Assembly (NCBI GenBank): GCA_000004985.1
Contig: GG738879.1
Direction: 5' to 3' (one strand)
From: Naegleria gruberi
Taxonomy: Eukaryota
DNA length: 64,000 bases
The notes beneath the pieces are model-generated. The model saw only the letters and a list, made by a program, of their open reading frames with translations, made no database searches and was not told where the DNA came from. The translations under genes were made by a program, and so were the position numbers. Positions 396 through 62,450 of this stretch are shown piece after piece; position 1 is the first letter of the stretch, and the number at the start of each line of letters is the position of its first letter.

Positions 396-1754
396 TTGAT
401 AAGTTGTGACACATTGAAAAAAGGATGTTGTGGAGCTAATCCTCAATCAGAAAGAGAGGAAAGAGCATCAATCAGGAAGAATGACAAACCATACGTCCCA
501 AGAGGTGTAGAAGATCACATCTCAGACGAAGAAGAAGAAGAAGATGAATACTTTGATTTCGAAAGGTACTCTAGAAGTACAAGATTTTGTGAGTGTCCTT
601 GTGTACATTGCTCAACTAAACTTCCAAAATATAATGGGGCTATTGTTGCTGATAATTTAATTCCCAGCGATTTGAAACAGAGATTGAAAGATGAAATTGC
701 AAAATTGGAGAATGTTCCAGAAGATAAGAAAGATTGGCATCCAGGAGCAAATAAGCAAGTATTGGACTTGATTCATCCTTCATTGTATTGTTATGTTGAT
801 AAGGTTAGTGTTTCTGAAAAGGAAATGGAACCTGAAGTTGAAAAAGAAAGACATTGGTATCAACCAAAACCAAGTTATGAAAAACCAAAATCCAATAGAT
901 GTCAATGGTTACCTGCTGAATTTGAAGTAACATATGATAGCAATGTTGGATTAGATGCTAAAGATGCTGAACCTACTGTGAAAATCAATAGCTATATCAA
1001 TAATATCGATCAAATCAAACAACCAGAACTTTATGATGTTATTGGTAAAATATTTGGTAAATTCCACAAACAAATGAAACAGAGTCATCATTCTATTGGA
1101 AGGGCAGACACATTACAAGTCATTGTAAAAGCTGCCAATATTATTGTAACCCCAGATAAGCCATTTTACTCTGGAGGAACTTTCCATATGGAAGGAATGC
1201 CCTATGAACACATTGCTACAACTGGTATTTATTATTATCATTCAGAAAATGTAAAGAATAGTTATTTGGAGTTTAGATCTGGTATTTCAGAGCCATACGG
1301 ATACCAACAAGACGATGTTAAAGGATGTTTCGAGCAATATGGACTTCATGATGGTGATTTACAATTCAGAAGTGAAGGAGCAATTCACACCAAGGAAGAT
1401 AGATGTATCATTTTCAATAATACCGACCAACATAGAGTAAGACACTTTTTCCCTATTGATCCTTCGAAACCAGCCATTAGAAAGATACTCGTCTTTTTTA
1501 TTGTGAATCCAAGGAATAGAATCATCTCTACACAAGATGTTGACGTGCAAAGATTTGATTTCCTTATTAATAGATGCTTTATTTTGAACAAATTACTCCC
1601 ATTCCCAATCGTTCACACAATTGTACAATTTATGCCACACTTTACTCATGAGGAAGCTTTGAAAAATAGAGAAGAACTTATGAACCAGAGAAAGTACTAT
1701 GTCGATGAGCAAAACTTGGAAATAGAAAGAGAATTTTCACTTTGTGAACATTAG
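396..1754 (+). CDS. DUF4246-like protein (WHPG…DLIHPSLY motif); 5' exon structure unresolved
   Basis: 452-aa ORF ending TAG. Motifs DWHPGANKQVLDLIHPSLYCYV and …IVTPDKPFYSGGTFHMEG recall the fungal/protist DUF4246 family from memory. ORF begins with a non-ATG codon, so upstream exon(s) are likely. Confidence 0.55.
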   Translation: MISCDTLKKGCCGANPQSEREERASIRKNDKPYVPRGVEDHISDEEEEEDEYFDFERYSRSTRFCECPCVHCSTKLPKYNGAIVADNLIPSDLKQRLKDEIAKLENVPEDKKDWHPGANKQVLDLIHPSLYCYVDKVSVSEKEMEPEVEKERHWYQPKPSYEKPKSNRCQWLPAEFEVTYDSNVGLDAKDAEPTVKINSYINNIDQIKQPELYDVIGKIFGKFHKQMKQSHHSIGRADTLQVIVKAANIIVTPDKPFYSGGTFHMEGMPYEHIATTGIYYYHSENVKNSYLEFRSGISEPYGYQQDDVKGCFEQYGLHDGDLQFRSEGAIHTKEDRCIIFNNTDQHRVRHFFPIDPSKPAIRKILVFFIVNPRNRIISTQDVDVQRFDFLINRCFILNKLLPFPIVHTIVQFMPHFTHEEALKNREELMNQRKYYVDEQNLEIEREFSLCEH

Positions 1755-2146: not shown

Positions 2147-2217
2147 CTCGAGTGCCGGGAATTGAACCCGGGTCGCCAGAGTGACAGTCTGGAATGCTAC
2201 CACTATACCACACCCGA
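2147..2217 (-). tRNA. tRNA-Asp (anticodon GTC)
   Basis: Reverse complement folds as cloverleaf. Acceptor TCGGGTG/CACTCGA, D-arm GTGGTATAGTGGTAGCAT, anticodon stem CCAGA/TCTGG with loop CTGTCAC (GUC), T-arm CCCGGGTTCAATTCCCGG. Confidence 0.85.
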
Positions 2218-5049: not shown

Positions 5050-7521
5050 ATGAATAACTTTGTAACAGCTTTTCACTTAACTTCTATAGAGGATTTTAGT
5101 CCTATACAACGAGCTTACTTTCAAAACAATGGCGACCCGCAGCAACATCCACCTAATACACCTGACAATTCAACTACCACCTCTCACACCCCAATATCTG
5201 TACTCTCCTCAATTCCCTTCTATTCTTCGAAGGCCATTTCCAAGAATAATAGTGTTGCTCCTCTTCATGTATCAAATTATAGACCAACCACACCAAAGAT
5301 TAGAAAACAAACTTCTCTAAGCTTTATAAGAAGTTCCAAGACCTTTGATGTTTCACATTTACAGCGAGTAAGAATCTCAACCAGCTCATCAACGAGTCCT
5401 CTCATTGAGGAACATGTAGAAAAACCGAAAATCACAACATCACTACAAAAGTCTATTGCAGCATCTTCGACTGTTCCCTATGCTGTGGTTACATCATGTG
5501 ATACGAAGAGGATTAATCTTTCAAAATTAGTGGCAATGATTCCACTGCGAATCAAATTGTTCTTTATTGTCATTGTATCGATAGTTTCACTAGTGGCATT
5601 TGGTGCTATTCTTATTAATGATGCAGCAAAGGTATGTTTTTAAGCAATATATTAATTTGACAAGTTAATTATTTAACATTAATTGAACCTTTTTCAGAGA
5701 GTGGTGGAAACACAAAGTGTAAAACAATTAACGTTATTTTCAACAAATATGGCACAAATGATTCATGAATTACAAAAGGAGAGGGGTGCATCCTCTCTCT
5801 ATCTAGGAGCTAGAGGGACTAAATTTGGTTTAGAGCTTGGAAAACAAAGAAATGTAACAAACTCAGCTATTGAAAATTGGCCATCAACAAAAAAGTCTAT
5901 CGATGAGTTTTTCAATTTACTGACAGATAAGGATGATGTAGCTAGAAATCAAACTTATTCCATGGTGTCAAAAATTGATGAATATCTGGGTCAGCTGCCA
6001 AATCAGAGAGAAATGATTCAAAATTTACAATACAACTCATCCAAGCCAGTTATTGATTACTTTTCAGATTGTATTAGGGATATGATTGATGTAGTTTCAG
6101 TGGCTGCATCTTTGGCAGACGATAGAAAATTCCTAGTCATATCAAATATTTACACACTAGTCATGGCTTTAAAAGAAACATTGGGACAAAGAAGGGCCAT
6201 TGGAAGTAATGCTATGGCCGCAAGCGCTTTCTCTAATGATTTTTTCTTTTCATTTCTTGATCTCAAATCTAAATATGTGGCCCTCTATCAGGTTATAGAC
6301 ACCAAGTCAAGAAATAAGGATTGTATTGAATTATTTACCGATTTGGCAAATTATGTACAAAATTCATCATTGATAGATATGATGGAAAGAAACATGTTAT
6401 CCTCCCCTTTTAATTTATCACAGGCTGAACAATCATTTTCTGCTGAAATGTGGTTTTGGACCATTACTGAGAAAATTAACCAACTCAAAATGGTCGAGGA
6501 CAAGATTAGAGATTCAATATTTTCAAATGGTGAGGACATGAAAAAAAGTTCCATGGATGCTTTGATTGGATATAGTGTTGGAGGTTTTTGTGTGGTTCTT
6601 TCCTCCATTATTTTAGCTTTAATCTTTTCAAGAACGATTCAAGACCTGATGAATCTGTACGATGAGACAGTTCACAAATTCGTTCCAAAGGAATTCATGT
6701 CGATTGTACATAAGGATAATGTTGTAGATTTAAAGCACGGAGATTACTTTGAAATGGAATTGGATGTCATGTTTGCTGATATTCGTGGTTATACAAGTAT
6801 TTGTGAAAATATGACACCAGATGAGACGTTTGAGTTTTTGAATAATTATCTGTCATTGGTTGGACCAGTTGTGAGAGAACATGGTGGATATATTGACAAG
6901 TATTTGGGTGATGGTATTTTGGCATTATTTTTAACACCAGGTCAATCTGTTTTAGCTGCAATGGAATTACAAAGAAGGTTAATTTCTCTGAACCAATCTA
7001 AGAGGTATCCAACAGTAAAAGTTGGTATCGGTATTGCAAGAGGTAAATGTGCAGTTGGATTGATTGGAGAATCTCAGAGAGTTGATCCAACCATTATTGG
7101 AGATACTGTCAATTTGGCATCACGTCTTGAATCCCTTACAAAATATTACCAGGTGGATATTGTGGTAACAAGGGAAGTTATTGAAGCATCTCCACTGTTG
7201 GATCCATCAAGATTTAGAAATATTGGAAAAGTTGCAGTTGTTGGAAGACAACAGGCATGTTCAATTTATGAAATTATTACTCAATCTCCAAACAATGATA
7301 AGGAATTGAAGAAGGCTGTCACAAAAGAAAAGTTTGAGGCAGCTATTGAAATGATGTATGATAGGGATAATTTTTATCCAGATGAAGCTCTTGAATATCT
7401 CAAACAAGTTGTTGAAGAGGATGAAAATGACTATGTAGCTCAATTGAGAATGTACAAGCTGGAAGAAATTCTAAGTTCAGAATGCACTTGGCAGTATGAA
7501 GATCGATTAGATTTTAAATAA
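5050..7521 (+). CDS. membrane class III nucleotidyl (adenylyl-type) cyclase with extracellular NIT-like sensor; exons 5050..5631 and 5698..7521
   Basis: Two ORFs joined by GTATGT donor at 5632 and tttttcAG acceptor at 5696-5697, in frame (phase 0). Exon 1 is an S/T-rich N-terminus plus TM helix (LFFIVIVSIVSLVAFGAILI). About 290 aa follow, opening with MAQMIHELQKERGASSLYLGARG (NIT-domain signature). Second TM is FCVVLSSIILALIFS. Cyclase catalytic core: FADIRGYTSICE, KYLGDGILALF, GDTVNLASRLES. Helical C-terminal tail. Confidence 0.8.
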
Positions 7522-10634: not shown

Positions 10635-10708
10635 GCAGCGATAGATCAGTTGGTTAGATCGTAAGCCTAACACGCTTAAGGTCGCGGGTTCAAGCCCCGC
10701 TCGCTGTA
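10635..10708 (+). tRNA. tRNA-Val (anticodon AAC), copy 1
   Basis: GCAGCGA TA GATC AGTTGGTTA GATC G TAAGC CTAACAC GCTTA AGGTC GCGGG TTCAAGC CCCGC TCGCTGT A. Loop CTAACAC gives AAC. Identical gene at 22936. Confidence 0.9.
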
Positions 10709-11705: not shown

Positions 11706-11777
11706 GTAGGAAGACAGGGAATCGAACCCTGATCTTAGGAACCACAATCCCATGTTCTACCACTGAACTATCTCCCT
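11706..11777 (-). tRNA. tRNA-His (anticodon GTG)
   Basis: Reverse complement AGGGAGA T A GTTC AGTGGTA GAAC A TGGGA TTGTGGT TCCTA AGATC CAGGG TTCGATT CCCTG TCTTCCT A. Anticodon loop UUGUGGU (GUG, G37), discriminator A73, no encoded G-1 (eukaryotic type). Confidence 0.8.
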
Positions 11778-17624: not shown

Positions 17625-19985
17625 ATGTCTTCCAGCAATGATGAAGAACCAACAATAACAACAACCCATGTCGAAGAGCAACAATCGTCATCTAGTGATA
17701 ATTCGGATGGAAGTTCTGTTGCTGCTATTGTTGCCACTACTTCTGTTGATGCAACAATAACAACTTCTCCCGCCAATTCTATCGTAGTCGTGGAGGCCAA
17801 ACAAAAAGCCACAACACCAACTCCTTCCACACCTCAACATCCACCTCCACAACATCACTCTACACCGTCCGATTCAACATCGAGTATTGGTACACCAGTT
17901 ATTACATCGGCTGTGATTGAATCTGATGATGGCTTGTGGGTAACTGTCTATGATCCAACAACAAAGAGAAATTACTATCATAACAAGACTACCAATGAAA
18001 CAACATGGAGTTTACCTATGAATCTTTCGTCACCTAATTTGGGTGCACATTTACGTAGTCAGAGTAGTATTGGTGAAGAAATTCAAAGAGTTGTTAGTAC
18101 TAGTACACCAAGTGCTACTCCTAAAACTCCTGGAGGAAATCATGAGGCTTTGGTTCCTCAATCTGAAAAGGTTGACCGTACACGTCATTCAGGTGGACAT
18201 CAACGTAGTTTATCTCAAGATGGCACTGTATCTAATTTAAAGAGCCGAGTTTCACATTTACACTCTATTCCTATCAATGTTAAAAAGGAACTTGATAATA
18301 ATGATCCACCAATTATTGCCATGTCAATGGATGACCGTTCAGGATTATTTACCAGATCTCAGGCTAATAGTGATGATGAGGAAACACCAATTACTATTGA
18401 AGAAAATCCAACACCAAGACAATTGGATCATGGTCAAATTGTTTTTGCAACCACTCCAAATGTTGTTGCTGAACCACCTAAAACAACTCCAGTAACTACA
18501 CCTTCTGCTTCTAACGAAGGAGAATTAGAGGATGGATGGGAAGCTACAATTGACCCATCTACTGGACGTACTTACTATTTCCATAGACAAACTCAAAAAT
18601 CTTCTTGGGATAGACCTGTCAAAAAATCAGGAGCTTCTGTAGCTACAGTCTCTACTGCAACAGTTTCTACCCCTGTTGCTGCAGCTTCTACAACAATTTC
18701 CACACCAAGTGAATCACACGAACCAGAATCTGATTTGCTTCCTAGAATTGCACCAGGAGATCATACCTTGCTCAAATACGGAAAGGCCAATTTCCAAAAA
18801 ATCAAGAAGGGTTTCTTCAAAACCTCAGTTAAGGTTGAAAAGTTGATTGAATTTTCAAAGGATAGATTAAATCAAACATTGCATCCAATCAAATTGGAGC
18901 AACATCAAGAAAAGGCTCTCAGATGTTTCGAACTTATTCAATTATTTATGGGAGATAGAAATTTGGAAAAGTGTTCTCCAACAGTCAAACAAATTGTCAA
19001 GTCTGGTACCAATGTTCATGATTTCTTCCTCTCTAAGGAAATTCTCCAAATTGCCCTTCTCAACGTTCCAATCAGAAATGAAATTGTAATCTACTTGTGC
19101 AAACAAACCAATAATCATGCCAAGATTGAAAATGCTCTTAAAGGTGTACAATTACTTGGTTTGATGCTCTCTGCATTCCCTCCAACTACATATGATTTGC
19201 AAGAGGCTGTATTATATTATTTACAAAAAACACTCGTTACCCACCCAAAAATTGGTCGTGATGATCGTATCAGACAATTCTCACTCCTCTGTGAAAAACA
19301 CTTAAGAAGATCTTGTGTAACAGGTCCAAGAAAAACTCTTCCATCAGATAATGAAATCAAGAACATGTCTAATCCAAATCCACCAGAACCAATTTTCGGT
19401 GTTTCAATTTCAGAATATTGGAGATGGCAAAAGGACAAGTTCCCTAATGGGGACCAAGCCAAACCATTTATTCTTAACTTGTTGAGTGAAGCCCTTAAAA
19501 AGACTAATTTATATACTGTAGAAGGTATTTTCAGATTGCCTGGTGATGTTTCTCGTGTTGAAGGTCTTAAAGAAAAGCTCTGTAAATCCAACTTTGAAAT
19601 TAACGAGAAGGATCCTCATGTATGTGCCTCCTTGTTCAAATTATGGTTGCGTGAATTGGCAGACCCTCTCATTCCTCATCGCCTCTATGAACATTGTGTC
19701 TCTGTTGCCAATGATGAAAAGCAATCAGCAGCTGTTTTAGATCAGTTACCAGCTGGTAATAGAGCTATCTTGGTATTTGTTTTGGACTTTTTATCTGACA
19801 TGCTTCCTCATTCAAAGAAGACTATGATGACAAGCGAAAACTTGGCTGTTGTTTTCTGTCCAAACATTTTAAGATCACAATCATCAGATCCAATGGCTAT
19901 CATGAGAAATGCTGCCTCAGAAAAACAATTCGTTCGTAATCTCATTCTCCACTGTGCTCACCAAAAGGGTATTGCAGAGAAATAA
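17625..19985 (+). CDS. RhoGAP with two WW domains and a MyTH4 domain (ARHGAP39/Vilse-like architecture)
   Basis: 786-aa single exon. WW1 GLWVTVYDPTTKRNYYHNKTTNETTWSLP; WW2 GWEATIDPSTGRTYYFHRQTQKSSWDRP. MyTH4-like block (…LRCFELIQLFMGDR…ILQIALLNVPIRNEIVIYLCKQ…). RhoGAP with arginine finger GIFRLPGD, …LFKLWLRELADPLIP. Confidence 0.85.
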   Translation: MSSSNDEEPTITTTHVEEQQSSSSDNSDGSSVAAIVATTSVDATITTSPANSIVVVEAKQKATTPTPSTPQHPPPQHHSTPSDSTSSIGTPVITSAVIESDDGLWVTVYDPTTKRNYYHNKTTNETTWSLPMNLSSPNLGAHLRSQSSIGEEIQRVVSTSTPSATPKTPGGNHEALVPQSEKVDRTRHSGGHQRSLSQDGTVSNLKSRVSHLHSIPINVKKELDNNDPPIIAMSMDDRSGLFTRSQANSDDEETPITIEENPTPRQLDHGQIVFATTPNVVAEPPKTTPVTTPSASNEGELEDGWEATIDPSTGRTYYFHRQTQKSSWDRPVKKSGASVATVSTATVSTPVAAASTTISTPSESHEPESDLLPRIAPGDHTLLKYGKANFQKIKKGFFKTSVKVEKLIEFSKDRLNQTLHPIKLEQHQEKALRCFELIQLFMGDRNLEKCSPTVKQIVKSGTNVHDFFLSKEILQIALLNVPIRNEIVIYLCKQTNNHAKIENALKGVQLLGLMLSAFPPTTYDLQEAVLYYLQKTLVTHPKIGRDDRIRQFSLLCEKHLRRSCVTGPRKTLPSDNEIKNMSNPNPPEPIFGVSISEYWRWQKDKFPNGDQAKPFILNLLSEALKKTNLYTVEGIFRLPGDVSRVEGLKEKLCKSNFEINEKDPHVCASLFKLWLRELADPLIPHRLYEHCVSVANDEKQSAAVLDQLPAGNRAILVFVLDFLSDMLPHSKKTMMTSENLAVVFCPNILRSQSSDPMAIMRNAASEKQFVRNLILHCAHQKGIAEK

Positions 19986-21172: not shown

Positions 21173-21276
21173 GGCTACGGCCATATCACGATGAATGCAC
21201 CTCATCCCGTCCGATTTGAGAAGTCCACATCAGTACTGTGGTTGGAGACAACTTGGGAACCTGTGGTGCTGTAGTC
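21173..21276 (+). rRNA. 5S rRNA gene, variant with 15-nt internal deletion (possible pseudogene)
   Basis: GGCTACGGCCATATCACGATGAATGCACCTCATCCCGTCCGATTTGAGAAGT^CCACATCAGTACTGTGGTTGGAGACAACTTGGGAACCTGTGGTGCTGTAGTC then TTTTT. Ends pair (GGCTAC/GTAGTC). Relative to the copies at 59357 and 62333 it lacks TAAGCATCGTCGAGC (loop B/helix III). Confidence 0.7.
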
Positions 21277-21363
21277 TTTTTATTTCTTTTCACTCATTAC
21301 CTGTTGTTTGTTCGTAAAGATAATTCTCGATAATCATTTAATTTACATTTCTTTTTAATTGAC

Positions 21364-22935: not shown

Positions 22936-23009
22936 GCAGCGATAGATCAGTTGGTTAGATCGTAAGCCTAACACGCTTAAGGTCGCGGGTTCAAGCCCCG
23001 CTCGCTGTA
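22936..23009 (+). tRNA. tRNA-Val (anticodon AAC), copy 2
   Basis: Sequence identical to the 10635 copy. Shares about 35 bp of 5' flank (atattaaggaga…atgaatgtaa) and the 44-bp 3' element. Confidence 0.9.
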
Positions 23010-32752: not shown

Positions 32753-35700
32753 ATGAAAGTTTCAGTGAAGATGGTTCATATGGAACATGACAATATGAGT
32801 TCAAAATCACTTGTCGAAACGATTGTTGGGAATCAAAATAATAGCAGACCTAGAAAAAAAATGCTATCCACTAATTGCCACTATTTCTCGCTGAAAGTGG
32901 TTTTGCTATCACTGTTCATTGTTGTTTTAACACTTTCGAATAACTTTGATTTCGTCTCTGGTGAAACTTTCAATGTTTATTCGTGGGGTTTAAATCTAGA
33001 CGGACAAACAGGATTAGATTATCCAACACCAAACGGATTTACCTTTTCCTATTACACTCCTGTGGTTAACAATTACATGACTTCTATTTTATTCCAAAAT
33101 TCGAATGCACTCTACGAAAGTATCTACAACATCCCAACAAAACCATCCGAAATACAAATTTCACTCAACTCTATTATTCCAGGTCTACAGTTCAACATGT
33201 ATTGGCTAACTTTTACCAATTCGTCATCAGGCGAATCTGTTGATCAATTATTTTCGTGTGGAGACAATTCGAATAGTTGTGCTGGACTAAGAGGACCAAA
33301 GTTTACAACAGAATTACAAGTTTTATATGAATATTCATACATTTCTTTTAGAAGAGTTACAGAAGGAACCATTCCAAACAAGAGACTTCATTCTGTTGAT
33401 TGTATGGGTTCATGTATTGCTTGTACGAAAGATGGCTTTGTTTATACGAAACCAGTGAATCAATATTTTTGGAATTCTGTTGAAATTCCATCTGGTTTGA
33501 TAGATTCTCTTGGATTTAATGTTTCTAACAAGTGTGAAAAGGTTTCCATTGGTGGCACAACTTCAGATACATTTTTTGTAATGACACAATCAGGACATGT
33601 ATTCTCGTGGGGTGATTACAATTATGGAATGAGAGGCTATGAAGATTTAGAAAATTCTGGAGCTTCCCCATATCTTGTTTCGTCTATTTTCGGTGCCTAT
33701 GAAATTGGAGCTCTTAAAAATTATGATAATCCAGTTCCTGCTGGATTGGGAGTTTTGGCATTTCTGAACGAAACTGGATTGTTCGTTATTGGAAAGAATA
33801 GGTATGTGAAATATTCAATGAATATTGTGTATAACATTACATTAACATAGTTATGGATTATTTGGAATTCCACCTGATGACCTAATCAAATTAGTTCCAT
33901 ACATGTCAATTGACAGAGTAGCCATTGGTTCAAGACTTTTGAAAATATTTTTTGGTTATGCCACAATTTTGGCAACAACTGATAATGGAAGTGTTTATGC
34001 ATTTGGAGGAAATAATTATGGACAAGTCAATGCAGATCTTACAGCATTTATTGATGATGTGAGGCAACTATATGGTGGACAAGCTACTGATTGTTCTTGT
34101 TCACGTCATGCTTGTGCTTGTAGAGTTGGTGTTAATATTGTGACCTGGGGAGATATGTCAGAAAGGGGAAGGATAGTAGGTAATGATTTTGATGTTCTTA
34201 GTTTTGGAGAAAGTATTTCTAAATTTGGTTTATTGGATAGAGGAGGTTTTGCTATTTCAGATAGTAATAAGTTCTATTCTTGGGGAAGCAATGATAATGG
34301 TTTCTTATGTTTGGGAGACAAGTTTATCCAAACAAAACCCAAGTTACTATTCACTGCCAATTACAATTTGAAGCAATTGGTGAGTGGAGACTCTTGTTCC
34401 TATTCTCTTGGAGAAAGTGGTGGAAATGCTGTTGTAAACATGTGGGGAAAGTGTACTAATGGTTTAGAATTTGGATTGACTCCTATTGGTTTAACATCTT
34501 TCTATAATTTGACATCTTTGGATAAGAGTGTCAATTTGCTAGATTTGAAATATTCTCAAATGTCCATGTATAGTTTGCATGCTGCTTTCCTTTCAGAAAC
34601 TCCAAGAAAAACTTACACAATTGGATCAGCAGCTGACCACAGATTGGGAACTGAAGATTTAATTGATAGAAATGCCCTTTTCAATGTTGACACCCAAACC
34701 TTCCTCAATGATGAGATTATCCAAGTTTCTGCTGGTTTCGACCATACTCTTTACTTTACAAAGAATGGTTATTTAATGGGTTCTGGTAGTAATGAGTTTA
34801 AACAATTGGACTCAAGCAGTATTACTAATTTCACTTTGGTGAATATTAGTACCTCTGTTATCGAACAAGCTGGTGAACGAATTGTTCAAGTGGCTGCTGG
34901 AAAAAAGACAACCTTTGTCTTGACAGATGCTGGTAATGTTTGGGGAAAGGGATTGAACGACCAACAGCAAATTTATAATATGGTGTTTAGTCCACTGACA
35001 GAATTTGAGAAACTTGTAAAACCTGGTTCCCTCAATTTTACCAGATTGGCTGTTGGTAATGCTGCAATTATGTGTGAAAATGGAGGAAATGCATTTCAAT
35101 TTATCAATGGTGGTATGACTGCTAGGTTACTCTATCCAGACAAGTGTCAGGATGTGTTTGCCAAAGATGACATTTATTACATTATTACAACAAATGGAAG
35201 GGTGTATTCTGTTGGATCTAATGAATATAATCAAATAGATACTGGATATGGATTGGATGCTACAACAACCATTCCAAACATGATCTTTTCTCCTTCAAAA
35301 ATTGGTGGAATACCCAAAATGATATCTATTGGAAATGGATTTACAAGCGTGGGAGTTTTAGTTCCATCATTCACTTGCAATGGAAAGAATTTCAGTAACT
35401 CAACAGTTTGTAATGGAAGAGGATTTTGCTATGCACAAGATCAGTGCAGTTGTGAAACCAGTGGTTGGACAGGGTCAGATTGTCAAATACCGATTTGCCC
35501 AAACACTGAAAGTGGTCTACCATGTGATGGAAAAGGAACATGCATTGGTCCAAACGAATGCAAATGCAATACAGGATATTATGGAAGTAGATGTGAAACC
35601 TATTATTGCTTTGGAATTCAGCAGTTTTCATTTGGAAACTCTGCATTAAAACCATGCAACAATAGAGGTACCTGCATTGCACCAGACACTTGTCAATGTA

Positions 35701-35879
35701 CTGATCCTAATTATTATGGAGATGCTTGTCAATTCAAAAAATGCTTTTCTGATAATGGAGCTAACTCAAAGAGGAATACATTTGCAGATCGATTGTGTAA
35801 TGATATTAATGTGCAAATGTTGGATATTCCAAAGCCAAAATCAACTGGAGATATGAGTGGTCAACCTATTATCACATAA
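32753..35879 (+). CDS. secreted/membrane-anchored protein with RCC1-like beta-propeller repeats followed by EGF-like (tenascin-type) repeats; exons 32753..33801 and 33851..35879
   Basis: GTATGT donor at 33802 and aacatAG acceptor at 33850 (49-nt intron), phase 2, joining …GKNR/SYGLFGIPPDD… Hydrophobic signal/anchor (alternative ATG 32861: MLSTNCHYFSLKVVLLSLFIVVLTLS). At least 10 RCC1-type repeats (YSWGLNLDGQTG, VFSWGDYNYGMRG, VYAFGGNNYGQVN, FYSWGSNDNGFLCLGD…). Five Cys-rich EGF-like modules (CNGRGFC…CSCETSGWTGSDC…). Confidence 0.8.
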
Positions 35880-46112: not shown

Positions 46113-49100
46113 TTAAGGCCTGATAGATTGTCTTGCCTTATCTAAAACATCCTTCTTAATCTTTGGATAATTTGGATGTTTCAATAGAACTTTGTGACAA
46201 ATATCAATGGCTTCAATGTTTCTCTTTGCTTTGAGAAGATTGAAAGCCAATTTGTATCCAACGTTTGGAGAAGATTCATTTGAAAGGAGCCATGCCTTGT
46301 CGTAGGAAGCAGCGGCTTCTTGGAATTGACCTTCCTTCTCGTAAATAAGACCGTTAAGTTCCCATGCCTTAGAGCAAGACTTATTAATTTCCAGAACCTT
46401 CTTTATAAGTTCCTGAGCTACATCGGTTTTGCTACTTGCAATATTAATCTCTGCAAGGAGAAGCCAACCTCTTTCAAAATCATCTTCCCATCCAGTTTTA
46501 ACTTCCATCTTGGAGATTCTCTTTAACATTTGTCTAGCCTTAGCTGTTTGCTTACTCCTTTCAAAAGCATAAGAAATAGCAACTAGAGCAGGAACATAAT
46601 CAGTCTCAACTGATAGAATGTCACCAAATGCAGGAATGGCCTTTTCAATTTCTTCCTTTGATTTACATTTAGCAATTTTAAGATAACCTTGGAGGGTCTT
46701 CTTCTTCATTGTTGATGTGTTCACAGTGGTGAGCTCTTCCAATAATCTCTCTGCAGCAGCGAGACTTTCTGAACGATTTTCGCTCGATAATCTCTTTGGC
46801 GCATTTTCATCGAGAGATTCTGTTGTGGTTTCTGGACTGAGGTAAGTTTCAATCATTAGAACTGTAGCACTTTCTCCCCATTCACCACTCTTACGAGCTC
46901 TGTTAAACCAAACAAGTGATTCTCTTGCATTGTTTCTGTACAAATGATAAATACCATTACAATAATTGTATCCAGGATCATATTCTTCCTTTGGTGAGAA
47001 GTTCTTGGCATTGATCAAGAATTGTTCAGCTTGTTCCAATCGACCAGCTCTTCTCAATAGAGTGATTAATTTCACCAAAGCTTTGTAGTTATTTGGCTTG
47101 TTTTGAAGGAATGCTTGGAAGTGTTCGATAGCATCTTCAAATTTGTTATTTCTGAACATGATATCAGCCATCATAATTGTAGCTTGTTCGTGAGCCTTAT
47201 TCAGTCTCAACAAACTAGTGCAATAGCTGTGACAGCTCTCGATATCATTATCCTTCAATGACAACTCAGCTAGGGCAAGCATACTCTTCTCGTGAGTTTC
47301 ATCGTATTGAAGACCTTCTCTGAAAAGAGCCATAGCTTTCTTGGTATCAGATCTCAAATGATATTCTCCCAATTCATAGCAAATCTTGGCAGTAATTTGT
47401 TTTTCTGAATAGAGAGTATCTTGTTGAGAGTTTTGTAATCTGGAAAGAATTTTAACTTGCATAGACTTTGCTTGCTCGAGATCTGTCATGGCAACTTTAA
47501 GATCACCCATCTTGCTGTGAACTTTGGACAACAACAAATAAATCTTAACATACATGGCCATACCACTAATGTGATTAAGTCTCTTATTATCAAGAACACC
47601 AATCGATTCCATTAGGACAGCTTCGGATTCTCTTGATTTTCTCAATTTCAAATATAATTGAGCAGTTTCATATCTTGCATCAGTGTTATTTGGATCCATC
47701 TCAATAGCATCCTTATAACAAGAGATGGCCTCATCGTAATTGTGCACAAGAACAAATGACTTTGCAATCTTATTTCTCAAAGCAAGATTCTTCTGATCAA
47801 GACTGAGAGCCTCTTGGTATGCTTCAATGGCTTTTTCTGGTTCTTGGATCTTCATGTAAGCATCACCAAGGCACAAATATCCAGATGCTGATTTGGTTGC
47901 CTTCTCAACTAGTTCTTCGTAACACTTGGCATAGGCTCTCTTATCGTTTCTGTTGAGGTAAATTCTAGCAATTTCAGATTTGGCCAACATGAAATAACCA
48001 GAATCTGCTGGAACAGATTGAAGGATTGAAATAGCGCTTTCAAAATCATTTCTGCTAATTGAAAGTCTTGCATTTGCAATAATGATACGACCTTCTTGTT
48101 CTGTTCTTTGGAACTTTTCGAGGGCCTGTTCAATGTACTTGGCAGCTTCAACATATTCGTTTCTTCTGGAGTGAATAGAGGAGAGTTCAAGGAAAATTGA
48201 AACCAATTCATCGTCACTGATCTTTCTTTGAGTGATTTCAGTTTTGAGAATTCTTTCAAGGTTTTGAATGGCATCTTTTGTTTCTCCCTTTGCTGCTAAA
48301 ACCTTGGCCTTCAAGAGGTTGTAGTCACATTGCTTGGTTACTGAGAAATCATAACTGATAGCTCTTTCAAGTTCTGTTGTGGCGAGAGCATAGTTTTCTT
48401 GGTGGTGGGCAATTTGGGCCAACAAGATGTGGGCTTGCGAACTCTTATTGTCAAATTGTAAAACTCTGGATAAAATTCTTTGGGATGATTCAAAATCTCT
48501 CATAACAAACTTGGTCTTGGCCAAGAGTAATTGAGGAAGGATGAGACCAGAAACTTCTGCAGTAAGGAATGTCAAAATTCTTGAAGCAAGAACCAATTCT
48601 TCAGTTGGAGGATCAGTTGGATTTAAAGGCTCACTTGGACTCAGTCTCATCAATTCATTTACAACTTCAAGAATGAATTGCGCATTGAGAGCAGCATAGT
48701 ATTCCAAGCCCTTCTTCTTGACTCTAATTTCCTTCTCGTGTAGTGAGAATACATCATTGAGAGATTTGGTAAAGTTTTCCGAATTCTTGTTACATCTTTG
48801 CTCGTATAAAGCTCCCAAGAATAAGAGTTCAGCTCTGCTTTCTGTTGTATCTTCTTGTACTTCATCTTCGTCGTCTTCCATCAATTCAATATCTCCAAGG
48901 AAATCCTTGTATTGAGTTGCGATTTCCTTCTTATTTTGAAGAATGAAACACTTATATAACCCCTTATTAGCTTCAATACTACTTTCATTGAGTTCCAATG
49001 CCTTTCTGAATGAGGTTTCCGAATTGATAAAATCTCTCATAGTCAATTGAATATAACCTTGAAGAATGAAATAGTCTGCCTCAATAGGATTTGCCTTCTT

Positions 49101-50165
49101 TGCCAAATTCAATAAATCGAGACATCTCTTCAGCAGTTCTTCCCTTCCTTCTGTCAGTGAGTAGAAGGTCTTAGCCAAAGTGAAGCATAATTTATCATTC
49201 TTGGATTCCTTCTTTGTAATTGATTTGAATAATTCGTTAAACTGGTTCACAAGATCCTCATATTGCGATCCTTTAACAAAATAGAATAATAAATTAATAT
49301 ACATGGCATCAACGTTGGAAGGATCTTGTTTTTGAATTCTCAGAGCTGTATCCCTGCATTGGTTCCAATCATCAATTTGCATTAATAATCCACATTTTTC
49401 AGTCAGAGCAGGAACGAAGTTTGGAAAACTTAAACTGACTTGACTGCAAATATCAATAGCCTGTTGAATCTTGTTTTGTTTTTCAGCATTGTAAACTTTT
49501 CCCATAAGAGCATCCACATTTTTAGGATCAAATTTAATACAAGCATCAAACAATTGTTCACAATCCACAAGTTCAATTTCCTCATCCATAACAGTCACCC
49601 AAGCTTTTACAGTATCCAAATTAGAGTAAGGGTCACGATATCTATCATCAATCTATTCATCATTTAACTTGGTTGGAATTAAAAATCAACTTACATCTTC
49701 CAATAAACTTCTTGCCTCATCAAATTCACTCATGTGCAAATACAACATGGCTGCTTGAAGTTTGGCAGAGTTTTGAGCTGATCCTTTTTCCATTTCAACA
49801 AAAGTCTTTAAATTTTCAATTTCTTGTTCATCTTGGTGAGCTGATTGTTCGTGAGCAAAAATCAAACCAATATACGCAGCTAATTGTACCTCCTTTCTTT
49901 CCTTAATCGTGTTGTATCCCTTTATTGCTTCAGTTAAATTTCCTTGCATACAATGACTATAAGAGTGCCACAATCTAATCACTGGATCTTCTCCTCTCGT
50001 GAGAAAAGTCTCACACATTTCCGTGATACTAGAGAAATACTTTTTCCTACAATTATAATTAATATATCCCTGAAGTTCTCCGACACTTGTGATTGTACTC
50101 CCCTTCAGAGCAGAGAGTGTTGTATTACCTTGCATGGCGCCCATACCAACAGATTGCCTCATCAT
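46113..50165 (-). CDS. TTC21B: intraflagellar transport protein IFT139 (TTC21B/THM1) homologue, all-TPR, about 1325 aa; exons 50165..49694 and 49652..46113
   Basis: GTAAGT donor at 49693 and gaatAG acceptor at 49653 (41-nt intron), phase 0, joining …SLLED/IDDRYRDPY… N-terminal block YINYNCRKKYF…GEDPVIRLWHSY…GNLTEAIKGY matches the conserved TTC21B N-terminus (INYYCQERYF…DPV.R…G.LTEA) as recalled from memory. More than 20 TPRs throughout. Confidence 0.75.
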
Positions 50166-57283: not shown

Positions 57284-58588
57284 TTAAAGAGTTAAAGGAT
57301 AATCAAATTCACCCTTCTTAATCATATCGTACACTTGTTCTACATCCTTATCACCACGTCCACTCAAATTGACCACAACAATATCATCATCCTTCAATTG
57401 ATTATTCTTGGCCATCTCAACCACATAGGCAAGAGCATGTGAACTTTCCAATGCAGGAATAATTCCCTCAGATTTTGACAATAACATGAATGCTTCCAAT
57501 ACTTGTTTCTTTGAAACTGTATAATATTCACATCTTCCAATTGATTTCAGATAGGAGTGAATTGAACCAACAGATGGATAGTCAAGACCAGCAGCAACTG
57601 AGTATGTTTTCTTTGGTTCTCCATTCTCATCGAGTAAACAGAGTGATTTAAAACCGTGGAGAATGTATGGAACACCTTCAGTGAGAGTTGGAGCTTCAAT
57701 TGGTTCAATGCCAAGTAATCTGACTTTTTCATCTTCACCCTTTCTGAGATAGTGAGAGAATGCACCAATGGCATTGGATCCACCACCAACACAAGCAATT
57801 ACCATGGTTGGGAGTTTGTTTTCTGCTTGGAGAATTTGTTGTCTTGATTCTTCTGAAATGACTGATTGGAAATGCTTGACCATATTTGGGAATGGACATG
57901 GTCCAACTGCAGAACCAAGTAAATAGAAAGTGTTTTCATAATTTTGAACCAAATCACCCAATGCTTCATCAACAGCATCTCTCAATCTTCCTTGTCCTTT
58001 TGTTACAGGAATAACCTTAGCTCCCAACATTTGCATTCTGAAAACATTCAAAGATTGTCTCCTACAATCCTCAGCTCCCATGTAAATGACACATTCTATA
58101 TTGCCGAATAAAGCACAGACCGCAGCCACAGCAGATCCATGTTGTCCTGCACCTGTCTCTGCAATAATTCTCTTTGCTCCCATACGTTTTGCTAGGAGAA
58201 TTTGTCCAATGCAATTATTAATTTTGTGAGAGCCCAAGTGAGCTGTATCTTCACGTTTGAGATAAATTTTGGCATTGGTTCCCAATTGCTTGGCAAAATT
58301 ACGAGCAGGAGAAAGTGGAGTTGGACGACCTACGAAATCACGAAGTAAATCTCTAAATTCCTTATTGAACTCTTCATCATCCTTATATTTCAAAAATTCA
58401 TCACGTAATCTCTCCAAAACCTTTTGCAATTGTGGAGGAACATGACAACCACCAAATTGGCATGATTCATCTTTAGTAATTCCATAAATTCCATTCATTT
58501 CATCATAATCATCAGCAATTATGCAATTTGGAACTGATCCATTCTTGGAAATTTGAACATCAACTTGTGAATTGGCAGTGGCAGACAT
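57284..58588 (-). CDS. trpB: tryptophan synthase beta chain (TrpB), stand-alone
   Basis: 434-aa single exon. HLGSHKINN (PLP-Lys), GAGQHGSAVAAVCALFG, VGGGSNAIG, GLDYPSVG. No fused TrpA domain in this ORF. Confidence 0.9.
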   Translation of the reverse strand: MSATANSQVDVQISKNGSVPNCIIADDYDEMNGIYGITKDESCQFGGCHVPPQLQKVLERLRDEFLKYKDDEEFNKEFRDLLRDFVGRPTPLSPARNFAKQLGTNAKIYLKREDTAHLGSHKINNCIGQILLAKRMGAKRIIAETGAGQHGSAVAAVCALFGNIECVIYMGAEDCRRQSLNVFRMQMLGAKVIPVTKGQGRLRDAVDEALGDLVQNYENTFYLLGSAVGPCPFPNMVKHFQSVISEESRQQILQAENKLPTMVIACVGGGSNAIGAFSHYLRKGEDEKVRLLGIEPIEAPTLTEGVPYILHGFKSLCLLDENGEPKKTYSVAAGLDYPSVGSIHSYLKSIGRCEYYTVSKKQVLEAFMLLSKSEGIIPALESSHALAYVVEMAKNNQLKDDDIVVVNLSGRGDKDVEQVYDMIKKGEFDYPLTL

Positions 58589-59356
58589 TTTATATAGTAG
58601 TAGTAGTAATGAGTTGTTTTTTTACAAATTGTTCTGATAAAAAGTGTATCTCTTAGTGGGAGAATTAAAATGCACGACAATAAGAAATTGAATCTTCTTT
58701 GAAAAAATCTAATATGGAAAGAATCATTATTTTGATGACCATACAAGATGATTGTGTGATGTGAAAATAGATGATTCTCTACTGTTGAATGCATGACAAC
58801 TTACTTTCGCTGTTTTTTTTAAATTGTGTTTTTATCCACAATGCTCTTTTACTGTTTCTTTAAATATTCACACACACGAACACGACAATAATTACGAGAG
58901 ATAAAATCAAATACCACTATTACAATGAGAAGAATAGCATCAGTGAGAAAATGATGATGCATTTCACACTAAACAATTCTCCGTGAAATTGCAGCATGTT
59001 ACTGATCAGGGGAAGAGTGTTTACAAAAAGATCTTCATTCTTAGAGGAATTTTTTAAACTCCTCAACTATTTGACTGTGTGGGAGTTTTTAGCTGATATT
59101 TTTCCTCTCGATAAAAATTGGAATGCTTTCCATAATTGGTTGAAATACTAGAATTGTGGCGTATGGTATTGAGGTAATTGTGGCGTTTTTAAACTCCTTT
59201 TGACCTCCTTACTTAGAGGAAATAAAGATTTTAATTTTTACAAATGGAGTTTGCTTATATATACAATAGTAAATTCATTTCTGCTGGTTATACAACTGGA
59301 GCAAGCAACTGGAGAAGAAAACGGTACTTTTCAAATCATGTTGAAAAGAATAAAAA

Positions 59357-59474
59357 GACTACAGCACCACAGGTTCCCAAGTTGTCTCCAACCTCAGTAC
59401 TGATGTGGCTCGACGATGCTTAACTTCTCAAATCGGACGGGATGAGGTGCATTCATCGTGATATGGCCGTAGCC
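59357..59474 (-). rRNA. 5S rRNA gene (full length, about 118 nt)
   Basis: Reverse complement GGCTACGGCCATATCACGATGAATGCACCTCATCCCGTCCGATTTGAGAAGTTAAGCATCGTCGAGCCACATCAGTACTGAGGTTGGAGACAACTTGGGAACCTGTGGTGCTGTAGTC followed by a T-run terminator. Confidence 0.8.
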
Positions 59475-61811: not shown

Positions 61812-62332
61812 TAAATAGAATAAGAATAATTGTTCCTTAGTATCGTTCCTTAATTAAGTGAGGTGGCAAAAAATCCTCAACAATATCATAGTGATTCACA
61901 TTACTACATTATCACAAATGTTCGGAAAGAGGGAGGACCACAATATTAATCAGCTTCAACCTAACCATGAAGAGAGGAGCTACGATGCATCTGAAGTAAA
62001 AATTGGAGATAGTGGTGTTTTGCTAGTGATACGTTGAAACAAGACAAAGAAATTGCAAAAAAAGTAATTAAGCAAAATCATTGGGCAATTGACATGGTAG
62101 ATCAACGCACTCTAGCTGAGATAATTCATTAAGACAATTTCTTGGATGACTTGTCAAAACAAAACGGTATTGATTACTCCCATTTGAAACCAGAATATCC
62201 AAAAATTGATCACAGTGCCTACTCAAATTATCAATAAGTTTTCTGGGTTTCCAGTGAGATTCCGAGTAGGTAAGGAAGAAAGGAATGTTTTTTGGAGAAA
62301 TTTGAACTGTAAAATTATTGTAAAGATGAAAA

Positions 62333-62450
62333 GACTACAGCACCACAGGTTCCCAAGTTGTCTCCAACCTTAGCACTGATGTGGCTCGACGATGCTTAAC
62401 TTCTCAAATCGGACGGGATGAGGTGCATTCATCGTGATATGGCCGTAGTC
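62333..62450 (-). rRNA. 5S rRNA gene (full length)
   Basis: Same sequence as the 59357 copy apart from 3 substitutions (5' GACTAC end gives perfect terminal helix with GTAGTC). T-run terminator. Confidence 0.8.

What the first reader, a model, noticed from the sequence alone, without database searches (positions are those of the whole stretch)
5050..7521. Receptor-type class III cyclase with an extracellular NIT-like (nitrate/nitrite-sensing) domain
Domain order is cytosolic S/T-rich N-terminus, TM1, about 290 aa extracellular domain, TM2, cyclase. The extracellular region opens with MAQMIHELQKERGASSLYLGARG, which matches the hallmark start of the bacterial NIT sensor domain. This bacterial-style sensor-cyclase layout (like CHASE-ACG of Dictyostelium but with a different sensor) is rare in eukaryotes. 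It may let the amoeba couple an extracellular anion or small-ligand cue directly to cAMP/cGMP.
Basis: partly seen in the sequence, partly recalled or inferred. Interest (0 to 1): 0.6.

Follow-up and report, generated by a model that had tools for sequence, protein, structure and literature searches.

The report
Naegleria NIT-sensor adenylyl cyclase gene
This is a real two-exon gene of the amoeboflagellate Naegleria gruberi for a membrane receptor that joins a bacterial-type nitrate/nitrite-sensing (NIT) domain outside the membrane to a cAMP-making enzyme inside. That layout is already known in Naegleria relatives, many invertebrates and bacteria, so it is a sound but fairly ordinary find.

Summary
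Window 5050-7521 (+) holds exon 1 (5050-5631), a 66-nt GT..AG intron and exon 2 (5698-7521), which give an 801-aa protein. The order is an S/T-rich N-terminus, TM1, a 293-aa ectodomain, TM2 and a cyclase.

- **NIT domain:** Pfam NIT matches at E=2.5e-36 over the whole profile. A confident AlphaFold model has NasR (4AKK) as its only significant PDB match.
- **Cyclase:** it is class IIIb. Both metal aspartates, the Lys595/Thr659 pair and Asn666/Arg670 are present, so it should make cAMP, not cGMP.
- **Ligand site:** the two arginines essential for nitrate sensing in NasR are kept (R223, R360). The neighbouring glutamate, invariant in 38 bacterial NIT domains, is Arg/Lys in this clade, so the ligand is likely but unproven.
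- **Source and relatives:** the window is Naegleria gruberi NEG-M. Full-length homologues exist in N. fowleri, N. lovaniensis, Willaertia magna and bacteria.
- **Novelty:** NIT-cyclases are published for animals, so "rare in eukaryotes" is overstated. An environmental allele shows purifying selection (dN/dS 0.06).

Verdict: new member of a known kind, modest interest.

The parts
5050..5631 (+). Exon 1, aa 1-194: start codon, S/T/P-rich non-conserved N-terminal region (aa 1 to about 160) and TM1
   Evidence: ORF from the first ATG after a stop. Composition is S 17.5%, T 11%, P 8%. No other Met lies upstream of TM1.
5551..5619 (+). TM1 (aa 168-190), a signal-anchor helix with the N-terminus predicted cytosolic
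   Evidence: Hydropathy peak of 2.99. Flanking charges are 4 K/R and 0 D/E on the N side, 3 and 2 on the C side. P165, K169 and G185 are invariant in 9 homologues.
5632..5697 (+). 66-nt spliceosomal intron (GTATGT...TTTTCAG), phase 0
   Evidence: In-frame joining, and a stop codon follows if it is retained. The alignment is gap-free across K194|R195 with the same TM1-to-HxLQ spacing as in Willaertia and Naegleria homologues. There is no cDNA evidence.
5698..7521 (+). Exon 2, aa 195-801 plus the TAA stop (7519-7521)
   Evidence: The sequence is 99% identical to the metagenome protein P0001.
5758..6519 (+). NIT sensor domain (aa 215-468), a double four-helix bundle, extracytosolic
   Evidence: Pfam PF08376 E=2.5e-36. 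NasR 4AKK matches by sequence at E=2.6e-6. AF2 pLDDT 92.8. By Foldseek, NasR E=5.6e-9 is the only significant hit. All 12 invariant NIT columns are kept.
6565..6633 (+). TM2 (aa 484-506), part of one continuous predicted helix aa 443-520 that runs from the last NIT helix into the cytosol
   Evidence: Hydropathy. AF2 helix H249-326 in exon-2 numbering.
6634..6753 (+). Short cytosolic linker (aa 507-546) with the conserved (K/R)FVPxEF motif. There is no HAMP domain. It carries a 4-aa deletion relative to all 8 homologues just after TM2.
   Evidence: Alignments A2 and A4. No HAMP hit in Pfam. Calling it a cyclase-transducer element is from my own knowledge.
6763..7254 (+). Class III (IIIb-type) nucleotidyl cyclase catalytic domain (aa 550-713): D555 and D599 metal, K595 and T659 substrate, R655, N666 and R670
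   Evidence: Pfam PF00211 E=2.1e-16. Best PDB matches are CyaB 3r5g at 2.8e-21, Cya2, and the photoactivated cyclases.
7297..7476 (+). C-terminal three-helix TPR-like tail (aa 728-787), conserved in relatives (F740, A758, D772, W792)
   Evidence: AF2 helices H534-554, H561-574 and H579-593. Invariant columns. TPR hits occur in some relatives.

Best explanation
This is a functional Naegleria gruberi gene for a single-pass-in, single-pass-out receptor adenylyl cyclase.

- Shown: the protein has a disordered cytosolic N-terminus, TM1, a NIT domain, TM2 and a short helical linker without HAMP. These are followed by a class IIIb cyclase domain with every canonical catalytic residue, then a TPR-like tail.
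- Inferred mechanism: the protein works as a homodimer with the NIT domains facing outside the cell. An anion binds at the arginine-lined site between the two four-helix bundles (R223, R360). Nitrate or nitrite is the most likely anion, by homology with NasR and the NIT chemoreceptors.
- Binding shifts the last NIT helix, which is continuous with TM2 and the linker. That shift re-sets the two catalytic domains and changes the rate at which ATP is converted to cAMP.
- The fused sensor-cyclase unit probably came from bacteria. It arose independently of the animal NIT guanylyl cyclases.
For: - Gene model and domains.
- NIT fold: AF2 pLDDT 92.8, and NasR is the only significant PDB match.
- NIT conservation: all 12 columns invariant in 42 NIT domains are kept, including R223 and R360. 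These align with NasR R50 and R176, which are essential for the nitrate response (PMC9581486).
- Ligand precedent: isolated NIT domains of two chemoreceptors bind nitrate and nitrite (table in PMC12358799).
- Helix continuity: one helix runs aa 443-520 through TM2.
- Cyclase: best solved relatives are the bacterial class IIIb cyclases CyaB, Cya2, bPAC/OaPAC and CyaC. The query has IDK(595)YLGD where the guanylyl cyclase Cya2 has E, and T659 where Cya2 has G. D555, D599, N666 and R670 are present.
- Selection: compared with a 99.3%-identical environmental allele there are 13 synonymous and 3 non-synonymous differences, dN/dS 0.063, Fisher p=6e-7.
- Host and relatives: neighbouring ORFs are exact N. 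gruberi NEG-M proteins. Full-length homologues exist in W. magna, N. fowleri and N. lovaniensis.
- Bacterial origin: NIT-cyclases occur in Ca. Halobeggiatoa and Marithrix. Short-N-terminus, probably bacterial proteins with the same HAMP-less order are P0175 and P0256.
Against: - No ligand, activity, localisation or transcript was tested.
- The residue before the second key arginine is R359. All 38 bacterial NIT domains aligned have Glu there (NasR E175, placed in or near the nitrate pocket, PMC7496416). The other eukaryote-type NIT-cyclases have K, V, L, T or S. The pocket is therefore altered, and the ligand or its affinity may differ.
- The query lacks 4 residues right after TM2 that all 8 homologues have.
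- Plasma-membrane location, as opposed to an internal membrane, is assumed.
- Topology rests on hydropathy, a modest positive-inside bias and the need for cytosolic ATP. No dedicated predictor was used.
- No annotated N. gruberi protein for this locus was retrieved, so there is no independent gene model.
Confidence: 0.6

Rival explanations
1. The architecture and cAMP output are as above, but the NIT-fold ectodomain of this heterolobosean clade senses a different small ligand. That could be another anion, or it could be nitrate/nitrite with a very different affinity.
For: There is a charge reversal at aa 359 next to the key arginine. It is R here and K in three relatives, against E in 38 of 38 bacterial NIT domains. 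The wider eukaryote-type set has K, V, L, T or S. NasR E175 lies in or near the predicted pocket, and E175A inactivates NasR (PMC7496416). No eukaryotic NIT domain has a demonstrated ligand; animal ones are called 'putative' sensors (PMC7400543).
Against: Both arginines needed for the nitrate response in NasR, and all other invariant NIT positions, are kept. The only ligands ever shown for NIT domains are nitrate and nitrite (PMC12358799, PMC9581486).
Confidence: 0.3
2. It is a guanylyl cyclase, like the animal NIT-receptor cyclases, and so signals through cGMP.
For: Pfam PF00211 covers both activities. Databases name the N. fowleri and N. lovaniensis homologues 'Guanylate cyclase domain-containing protein'. 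Animal NIT-cyclases are of the ANPR guanylyl cyclase type (PMC7400543).
Against: The specificity pair is Lys595/Thr659, not Glu/Cys or Glu/Gly. In the HMMER alignment the guanylyl cyclase Cya2 has E and G at exactly these positions, and its engineered adenylyl version has K. The ANP receptor scores only 24 bits against 79 bits for the adenylyl cyclase CyaB.
Confidence: 0.06
3. It is not a working Naegleria gene. It could be a pseudogene, a mis-joined pair of ORFs, or bacterial contamination of the assembly.
For: No annotated N. gruberi protein for it was retrieved in two searches. The closest cyclase-domain relatives are bacterial. There is no transcript evidence.
Against: - The 801-codon frame is intact and every catalytic and NIT-invariant residue is present.
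- dN/dS is 0.063 against an independent allele.
- The intron has GT..AG ends, and the alignment is gap-free across the junction.
- The gene sits between exact N. gruberi genes and eukaryote-type genes such as IFT139 and MyTH4-RhoGAP.
- GC content and codon style match the window.
- Orthologue-like genes occur in three other heteroloboseans.
Confidence: 0.03

Closest known systems
Heterolobosean NIT-cyclase homologues: Naegleria lovaniensis C9374_011351 (XP-type record, 714 aa), N. fowleri FDP41_005831 (XP_044559791.1, 691 aa) and Willaertia magna ABK040_006932 (KAL9647576.1, 694 aa)
   Same: They share the same order: variable N-terminus, TM1, NIT, TM2, HAMP-less linker with FVPKEF, cyclase, TPR-like tail ending in a conserved Trp. 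Identity over the full length is 36-41%. They have the same Lys or Arg in place of the bacterial Glu next to the second key arginine.
   Different: Identity is only about 40%, so they may be paralogues rather than orthologues. The query has a longer N-terminus (about 165 aa against about 110) and a 4-aa deletion after TM2. All are uncharacterised 'hypothetical' or 'guanylate cyclase domain' proteins.
Animal NIT-domain receptor guanylyl cyclases (insects, sea urchin, placozoans, molluscs and others; PMC1592074, PMC7400543)
   Same: A NIT domain flanked by two TM helices with a C-terminal class III cyclase. They are proposed extracellular nitrate/nitrite sensors, and no ligand has been shown.
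   Different: Their catalytic domain is of the ANPR guanylyl cyclase type (PMC7400543). Here the domain is bacterial-like class IIIb with Lys/Thr, and the ANP receptor scores only 24 bits against 79 for CyaB. The fusion is therefore most likely independent, and the predicted output is cAMP rather than cGMP.
Bacterial NIT sensors: NasR (PDB 4AKK), the NIT chemoreceptor of Pectobacterium atrosepticum (printed PscN in the PMC12358799 table) and Dd15070 of Dickeya dadantii, and NIT-HAMP-cyclase-hemerythrin proteins of Ca. Halobeggiatoa/Marithrix
   Same: They share the same NIT fold and the same invariant residues, including the two arginines. The Beggiatoa-type proteins also couple NIT to a class III cyclase.
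   Different: NasR is soluble with an RNA-binding output, and the chemoreceptors signal to CheA. The named bacterial NIT-cyclases carry a HAMP domain and a hemerythrin tail that this protein lacks. All the bacterial ones have Glu at the position that is R359 here.
   Same: It is a eukaryotic, bacterial-style receptor adenylyl cyclase with one catalytic domain acting as a homodimer and an extracellular sensor between TM helices.
   Different: It has a different sensor domain (CHASE rather than NIT) and comes from a different lineage (Amoebozoa rather than Heterolobosea). No sequence comparison was made here.
Pseudomonas aeruginosa CyaB and other class IIIb adenylyl cyclases (PDB 3r5g, 1wc0, 5mbh, 4yus)
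   Same: They are the best solved-structure matches to the catalytic domain (E=2.8e-21). The metal, Lys/Thr, Asn and Arg residues are identically placed.
   Different: Their sensor modules differ (MASE2, BLUF and others). None has a NIT ectodomain.

Membership tests
NIT domain (Pfam PF08376) | Significant match to the family HMM above the curated cut-off, over the whole profile | tested here: met
   E=2.5e-36, 126.7 bits against a cut-off of 24.9, profile positions 2-238 of 239. Exon 2 alone gives the same result.
NIT domain (Pfam PF08376) | Two tandem four-helix bundles, as in the NasR NIT structure | tested here: met
   The AF2 model has pLDDT 92.8 and pTM 0.88 and is all-helical. In Foldseek against the PDB, 4akk has E=5.6e-9 and TMq 0.76, and the next hit has E=0.066.
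NIT domain (Pfam PF08376) | The two invariant arginines needed for the nitrate response (NasR R50 and R176) | tested here: met
   R223 (LQKERG) and R360 (GQRRAIG) align to them. Both columns are R in 42 of 42 sequences. Their functional role is from PMC9581486.
NIT domain (Pfam PF08376) | Glutamate preceding the second arginine (NasR E175), nearly invariant in bacterial NIT domains | tested here: not met
   aa 359 is Arg. The column holds E in 38 bacterial sequences and K or R in the 4 heterolobosean-type ones. This is a clade-specific deviation and is not enough to exclude membership.
NIT domain (Pfam PF08376) | Binds nitrate and/or nitrite | not testable with these tools
   This needs thermal-shift or ITC assays on the purified ectodomain.
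Class III nucleotidyl cyclase, subclass IIIb adenylyl cyclase | Match to PF00211, and closest solved relatives of class IIIb | tested here: met
   PF00211 E=2.1e-16. The top PDB hits are CyaB, Cya2, PACs, CyaC and sAC. The subclass labels are from my own knowledge.
Class III nucleotidyl cyclase, subclass IIIb adenylyl cyclase | Two metal-binding Asp, plus the transition-state Asn and Arg | tested here: met
   D555, D599, N666 and R670 are present. D555 and D599 are invariant in 65 sequences.
Class III nucleotidyl cyclase, subclass IIIb adenylyl cyclase | Adenine-specifying Lys, with Thr at the second specificity position | tested here: met
   K595 and T659 are present, while the guanylyl cyclase Cya2 has E and G at these positions. 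The Thr is noted as the sAC-like marker in PMC3383692.
Class III nucleotidyl cyclase, subclass IIIb adenylyl cyclase | Converts ATP to cAMP as a homodimer | not testable with these tools
   An enzyme assay is needed.
Receptor-type (TM-sensor-TM) cyclase | Exactly two TM helices flanking the sensor, with the catalytic domain cytosolic | tested here: met
   Only two hydrophobic segments are found. TM2 is continuous with the last NIT helix. Orientation is inferred from the charge bias and the need for ATP, and was not measured.
Bacterial NIT-HAMP-cyclase proteins (Beggiatoa type) | A HAMP domain between TM2 and the cyclase, and a hemerythrin tail | tested here: not met
   The query has no HAMP or hemerythrin hit. 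P0317-P0325 carry PF00672, and eight of the nine also carry PF01814.
Animal NIT receptor guanylyl cyclases | ANPR-type guanylyl cyclase catalytic domain | tested here: not met
   The specificity pair is K/T. The ANP receptor scores 24 bits against 79 bits for CyaB. Animal sequences themselves were not available for a tree.

The most novel reading that the evidence does not exclude
Heterolobosean NIT-cyclases would be a separate, bacterially derived receptor family. They lack HAMP, have a class IIIb adenylyl cyclase output, and carry a Glu-to-Lys/Arg charge reversal in the NIT pocket. In this reading they sense an extracellular anion other than, or with an affinity very different from, bacterial nitrate/nitrite sensors. 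They would feed that signal directly into cAMP control of Naegleria behaviour such as prey finding or the amoeba-to-flagellate switch. This particular member may also be missing from the NEG-M gene catalogue.
Probability: 0.2. Interest if true: 0.55.

Novelty: new member of a known kind. Interest (0 to 1): 0.3.

Why it matters
No eukaryotic NIT domain has a demonstrated ligand, and animal NIT-cyclases are still called putative or enigmatic sensors. Naegleria gruberi can be cultured, and this gene has only one short intron, so both the ectodomain and the catalytic half could be expressed directly. That would test whether eukaryotes sense nitrate or nitrite with this bacterial module. It would also test what the clade-specific Glu-to-Arg/Lys change in the pocket does. 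Otherwise this is one more entry in the large, bacterial-looking cyclase repertoire of Naegleria.

Tried and rejected
It was rerun with exon 2 only.
2. The first word-indexed homologue search with the full protein returned only 38 hits and no Naegleria relatives. The S/T-rich N-terminus probably filled the candidate list. Repeating with the cyclase half and with exon 2 worked better.
3. I tried to see the NCBI annotation of this locus through a neighbouring gene. Only a short metagenome contig came back, so whether NEG-M has a gene model here stays open.
4. Neither the N. gruberi genome paper and its review nor the 2023 paper on NIT domains in eukaryotes is held. My recollection that the genome paper mentions NIT-containing cyclases is therefore unverified.
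5. A Foldseek search of AFDB50 for annotated N. gruberi relatives could not be run because the library is unavailable.
6. No second copy or paralogue was found in the window (tblastn).
7. I looked for an RNA element in the conserved stretch downstream of the stop codon. The only hit was a sub-threshold SNORD18 match, E=0.45, and the sequence is unique in the window.
8. Rejected readings: a generic four-helix bundle, bacterial contamination and a pseudogene.
Full report
**Observation**

The region reads as the first stage said.
- An ATG at 5050 opens a 194-codon exon that ends at 5631.
- A 66-nt intron follows at 5632-5697, GTATGT...TTTTCAG. If it is retained, a TAA is reached after three further codons.
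- Exon 2 runs from 5698 to the TAA at 7519-7521.
- The spliced product is 801 aa. M1 is the only Met upstream of the first hydrophobic segment.
- Kyte-Doolittle windows above 1.6 occur in only two places, about aa 168-190 and 484-506. These enclose 293 residues.
- The quoted motif MAQMIHELQKERGASSLYLGARG is at aa 212-234.

**Domain tests**

*Family matches.* Pfam gives NIT (PF08376) at E=2.5e-36, 126.7 bits against a cut-off of 24.9. The match covers aa 215-468 and profile positions 2-238 of 239. Guanylate_cyc (PF00211) scores E=2.1e-16 over aa 550-713. NCBIfam adds nothing.

*Solved structures.* By sequence, the ectodomain matches only NasR (4AKK), at E=2.6e-6.

*Models.* An AlphaFold2 model of aa 195-510, built on 42 NIT sequences, has pLDDT 92.8 and pTM 0.88 and is entirely helical. 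Foldseek against the PDB returns NasR as the only significant match, with E=5.6e-9 and TM 0.76. The next hit has E=0.066. So this is not a generic helical bundle. A second model of all of exon 2 (pLDDT 92.9) shows four things:
- one unbroken helix from aa 443 to 520, comprising the last NIT helix, TM2 and the start of the linker
- the short FVPKEF helix
- a canonical cyclase fold
- a three-helix tail

**Is exon 1 part of the gene?**

The spliced protein aligns with eight full-length relatives without any gap across K194|R195. The TM1 residues P165, K169 and G185 are invariant. The spacing from TM1 to the HxLQxERG motif is identical to that in the Willaertia and Naegleria proteins. This is homology evidence; there is no cDNA evidence.

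**Organism and context**

Four neighbouring ORFs are exact matches to Naegleria gruberi NEG-M proteins on a 384-kb scaffold: EFC42423.1, EFC42427.1, EFC42505.1 and EFC42510.1. The window also holds clearly eukaryotic genes, namely IFT139/TTC21, a WW-MyTH4-RhoGAP protein, an ABC1 kinase and RCC1-EGF. It also carries dispersed 5S rRNA and tRNA genes.

Two word-indexed searches returned no N. gruberi-named protein for the cyclase itself. They found only a 99%-identical 587-aa prokaryote-style gene call from a metagenome. The locus may be missing from the annotated gene set, or from this collection. I could not decide which.

**Selection**

The metagenome contig L001 is 99.3% identical over 2533 nt. 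Within the coding sequence there are 13 synonymous and 3 non-synonymous differences (Q293E, N565K, V683M). This gives dN/dS = 0.063, Fisher p = 6e-7. The gene is under purifying selection.

**Output: cAMP or cGMP?**

- The best solved relatives of the catalytic domain are bacterial class IIIb enzymes: P. aeruginosa CyaB (2.8e-21), Synechocystis Cya2, BLUF-type photoactivated cyclases and Spirulina CyaC. Animal receptor guanylyl cyclases score far lower, with the ANP receptor at 24 bits.
- In those alignments the query has K595 in IDKYLGD where the guanylyl cyclase Cya2 has Glu. An engineered adenylyl version of Cya2 has Lys at that position.
- The query has T659 in DPTIIG where Cya2 has Gly and CyaB has Thr.
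- The metal aspartates D555 and D599, together with R655, N666 and R670, are all present.
- A Lys/Thr pair marks class IIIb adenylyl cyclases. The Thr is cited as the sAC-like, bicarbonate-associated residue in PMC3383692.
- I therefore predict a homodimeric adenylyl cyclase. This is an inference from sequence, not a measurement.

**Ligand**

Across 42 NIT domains, 12 columns are invariant, and the query keeps all of them: H217, Q220, E222, R223, G224, R298, K353, E354, R360, W446, T451 and I454. R223 and R360 align with NasR R50 and R176. Their alanine substitutions abolish the nitrate response (PMC9581486). Isolated NIT domains of two chemoreceptors bind nitrate and nitrite at micromolar affinity (table in PMC12358799).

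There is one clear deviation. The residue before R360 is Arg359, while all 38 bacterial sequences have Glu at that position. That Glu is NasR E175, which was predicted to belong to the pocket, and E175A is inactive (PMC7496416). The three other heterolobosean-type proteins in that alignment have Lys. The wider eukaryote-type set has K, V, L, T or S. Nitrate or nitrite remains the best guess, but the pocket is not identical.

**Relatives**

An exhaustive HMMER scan of 1.84 billion cluster representatives found 74,066 hits, nearly all to the cyclase half. About ten clusters match in one stretch from the NIT domain to the cyclase.
- Named ones are Willaertia magna KAL9647576.1 (41%), N. fowleri XP_044559791.1 (39%) and two adjacent N. 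lovaniensis genes.
- Several unnamed JGI/IMG proteins share the architecture, and two of them add a C-terminal RGS domain.
- Bacterial NIT-HAMP-cyclase-hemerythrin proteins occur in Ca. Halobeggiatoa and Marithrix.
- Two short-N-terminus, probably bacterial proteins (P0175, P0256) have the same HAMP-less order and keep the Glu.

The cyclase half on its own is 35-48% identical to cyanobacterial, Leptospira and other bacterial cyclases, including over the C-terminal tail. Together this suggests that the fused unit is of bacterial origin. That is an inference, and no tree was built.

**What is already known**

- NIT-TM-cyclase proteins were recognised in insects and sea urchins in 2006 (PMC1592074).
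- They were then found in placozoans and many bilaterian phyla, where the cyclase is of the ANPR guanylyl cyclase type (PMC7400543). They are also discussed for ctenophores (PMC10073611).
[quoted passage not shown] It is cited in PMC11804620 but is not held.
- The Euglena genome study lists NIT among the domain compositions in a cyclase-family tree that includes N. gruberi sequences.
- From memory only, the 2010 N. gruberi genome paper also mentions NIT-containing cyclases.

The layout is therefore not rare in eukaryotes. What is particular here is the class IIIb, cAMP-type catalytic domain and the altered pocket residue.

**Mechanism and confidence**

| Step | Status |
|---|---|
| Gene structure, domain order, NIT fold and invariant residues, complete catalytic residue set, purifying selection, host genome | Shown |
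| N-in topology with NIT outside | Inferred |
| Dimerisation | Inferred |
| Anion binding between the bundles | Inferred |
| Transmission along the continuous helix through TM2 to the catalytic dimer | Inferred |
| cAMP as product | Inferred |
| Plasma-membrane location | Inferred |

My confidence is about 0.95 for the architecture, about 0.8 for adenylyl rather than guanylyl specificity, and about 0.5-0.6 for nitrate or nitrite as the ligand.

**Verdict**

The finding is a new, possibly unannotated, member of a known kind of eukaryotic and bacterial receptor cyclase. Interest is modest at 0.3. Its value lies mainly in being an accessible test case for what eukaryotic NIT domains bind.

Noticed in passing
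window 5050-7521: Neither word-indexed protein search returned an annotated N. gruberi protein for this gene, although four neighbouring ORFs match NEG-M proteins exactly. The locus may lack a gene model in the public annotation.
   Followed up: partly
window 6634-6650 (aa 507-512): The query lacks 4 residues directly after TM2. All 8 full-length homologues have them, in a conserved xxPW motif. A 4-residue change in a signalling helix could alter register and the sign of the response.
   Followed up: no
L001 (ENA ERZ929261, k127_416206) and L003 (k127_386618): A public metagenome assembly (PRJEB11402) contains contigs 99.3% identical to this N. gruberi scaffold, including this gene and the upstream genes. 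A close N. gruberi relative was therefore present in that sample. Just after the stop codon the two alleles differ by indels and then become similar again.
   Followed up: partly
window 59356-59474 (-), 62332-62450 (-), 21173-21277 (+): Two full 5S rRNA genes lie 3 kb apart (105 and 101 bits). A third, weaker and shorter copy scores 48 bits and may be degenerate. All are dispersed among protein-coding genes.
   Followed up: no
window 10635-10708 (+) and 22936-23009 (+): Two tRNA-Val(AAC) genes with identical scores lie 12 kb apart. tRNA-His(GTG) is at 11706-11777 (-) and tRNA-Asp(GTC) at 2147-2217 (-).
   Followed up: no
window 46113-49619 (-): A long ORF matches all TTC21/IFT139 ARM/TPR domains, an intraflagellar-transport A subunit. 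This fits the flagellate stage of Naegleria. The ORF starts inside the N-terminal domain, so an upstream exon is likely.
   Followed up: no
window 396-1754 (+), 17625-19985 (+), 33903-35879 (+), 57284-58588 (-): Other neighbours are a DUF4246 protein, a WW-WW-MyTH4-RhoGAP protein (EFC42427.1), an RCC1-repeat protein with teneurin-like EGF repeats, and a stand-alone tryptophan synthase beta-type PALP enzyme (EFC42510.1).
   Followed up: no
P0169 and P0219 (JGI/IMG proteins, 849 and 829 aa): Two unnamed relatives have the same TM-NIT-TM-cyclase core plus a C-terminal RGS domain. This would link the sensor-cyclase to heterotrimeric G-protein signalling. Their source organism is unknown.
   Followed up: no
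PMC9581486, methods (primers for NasR mutants): The printed primers for 'R49A' and 'R176A' appear to change the preceding Glu codon rather than the Arg (read). The residue labels in that paper may therefore be off by one for two mutants. This does not affect R50, but it bears on which of E175 and R176 was tested.
   Followed up: no
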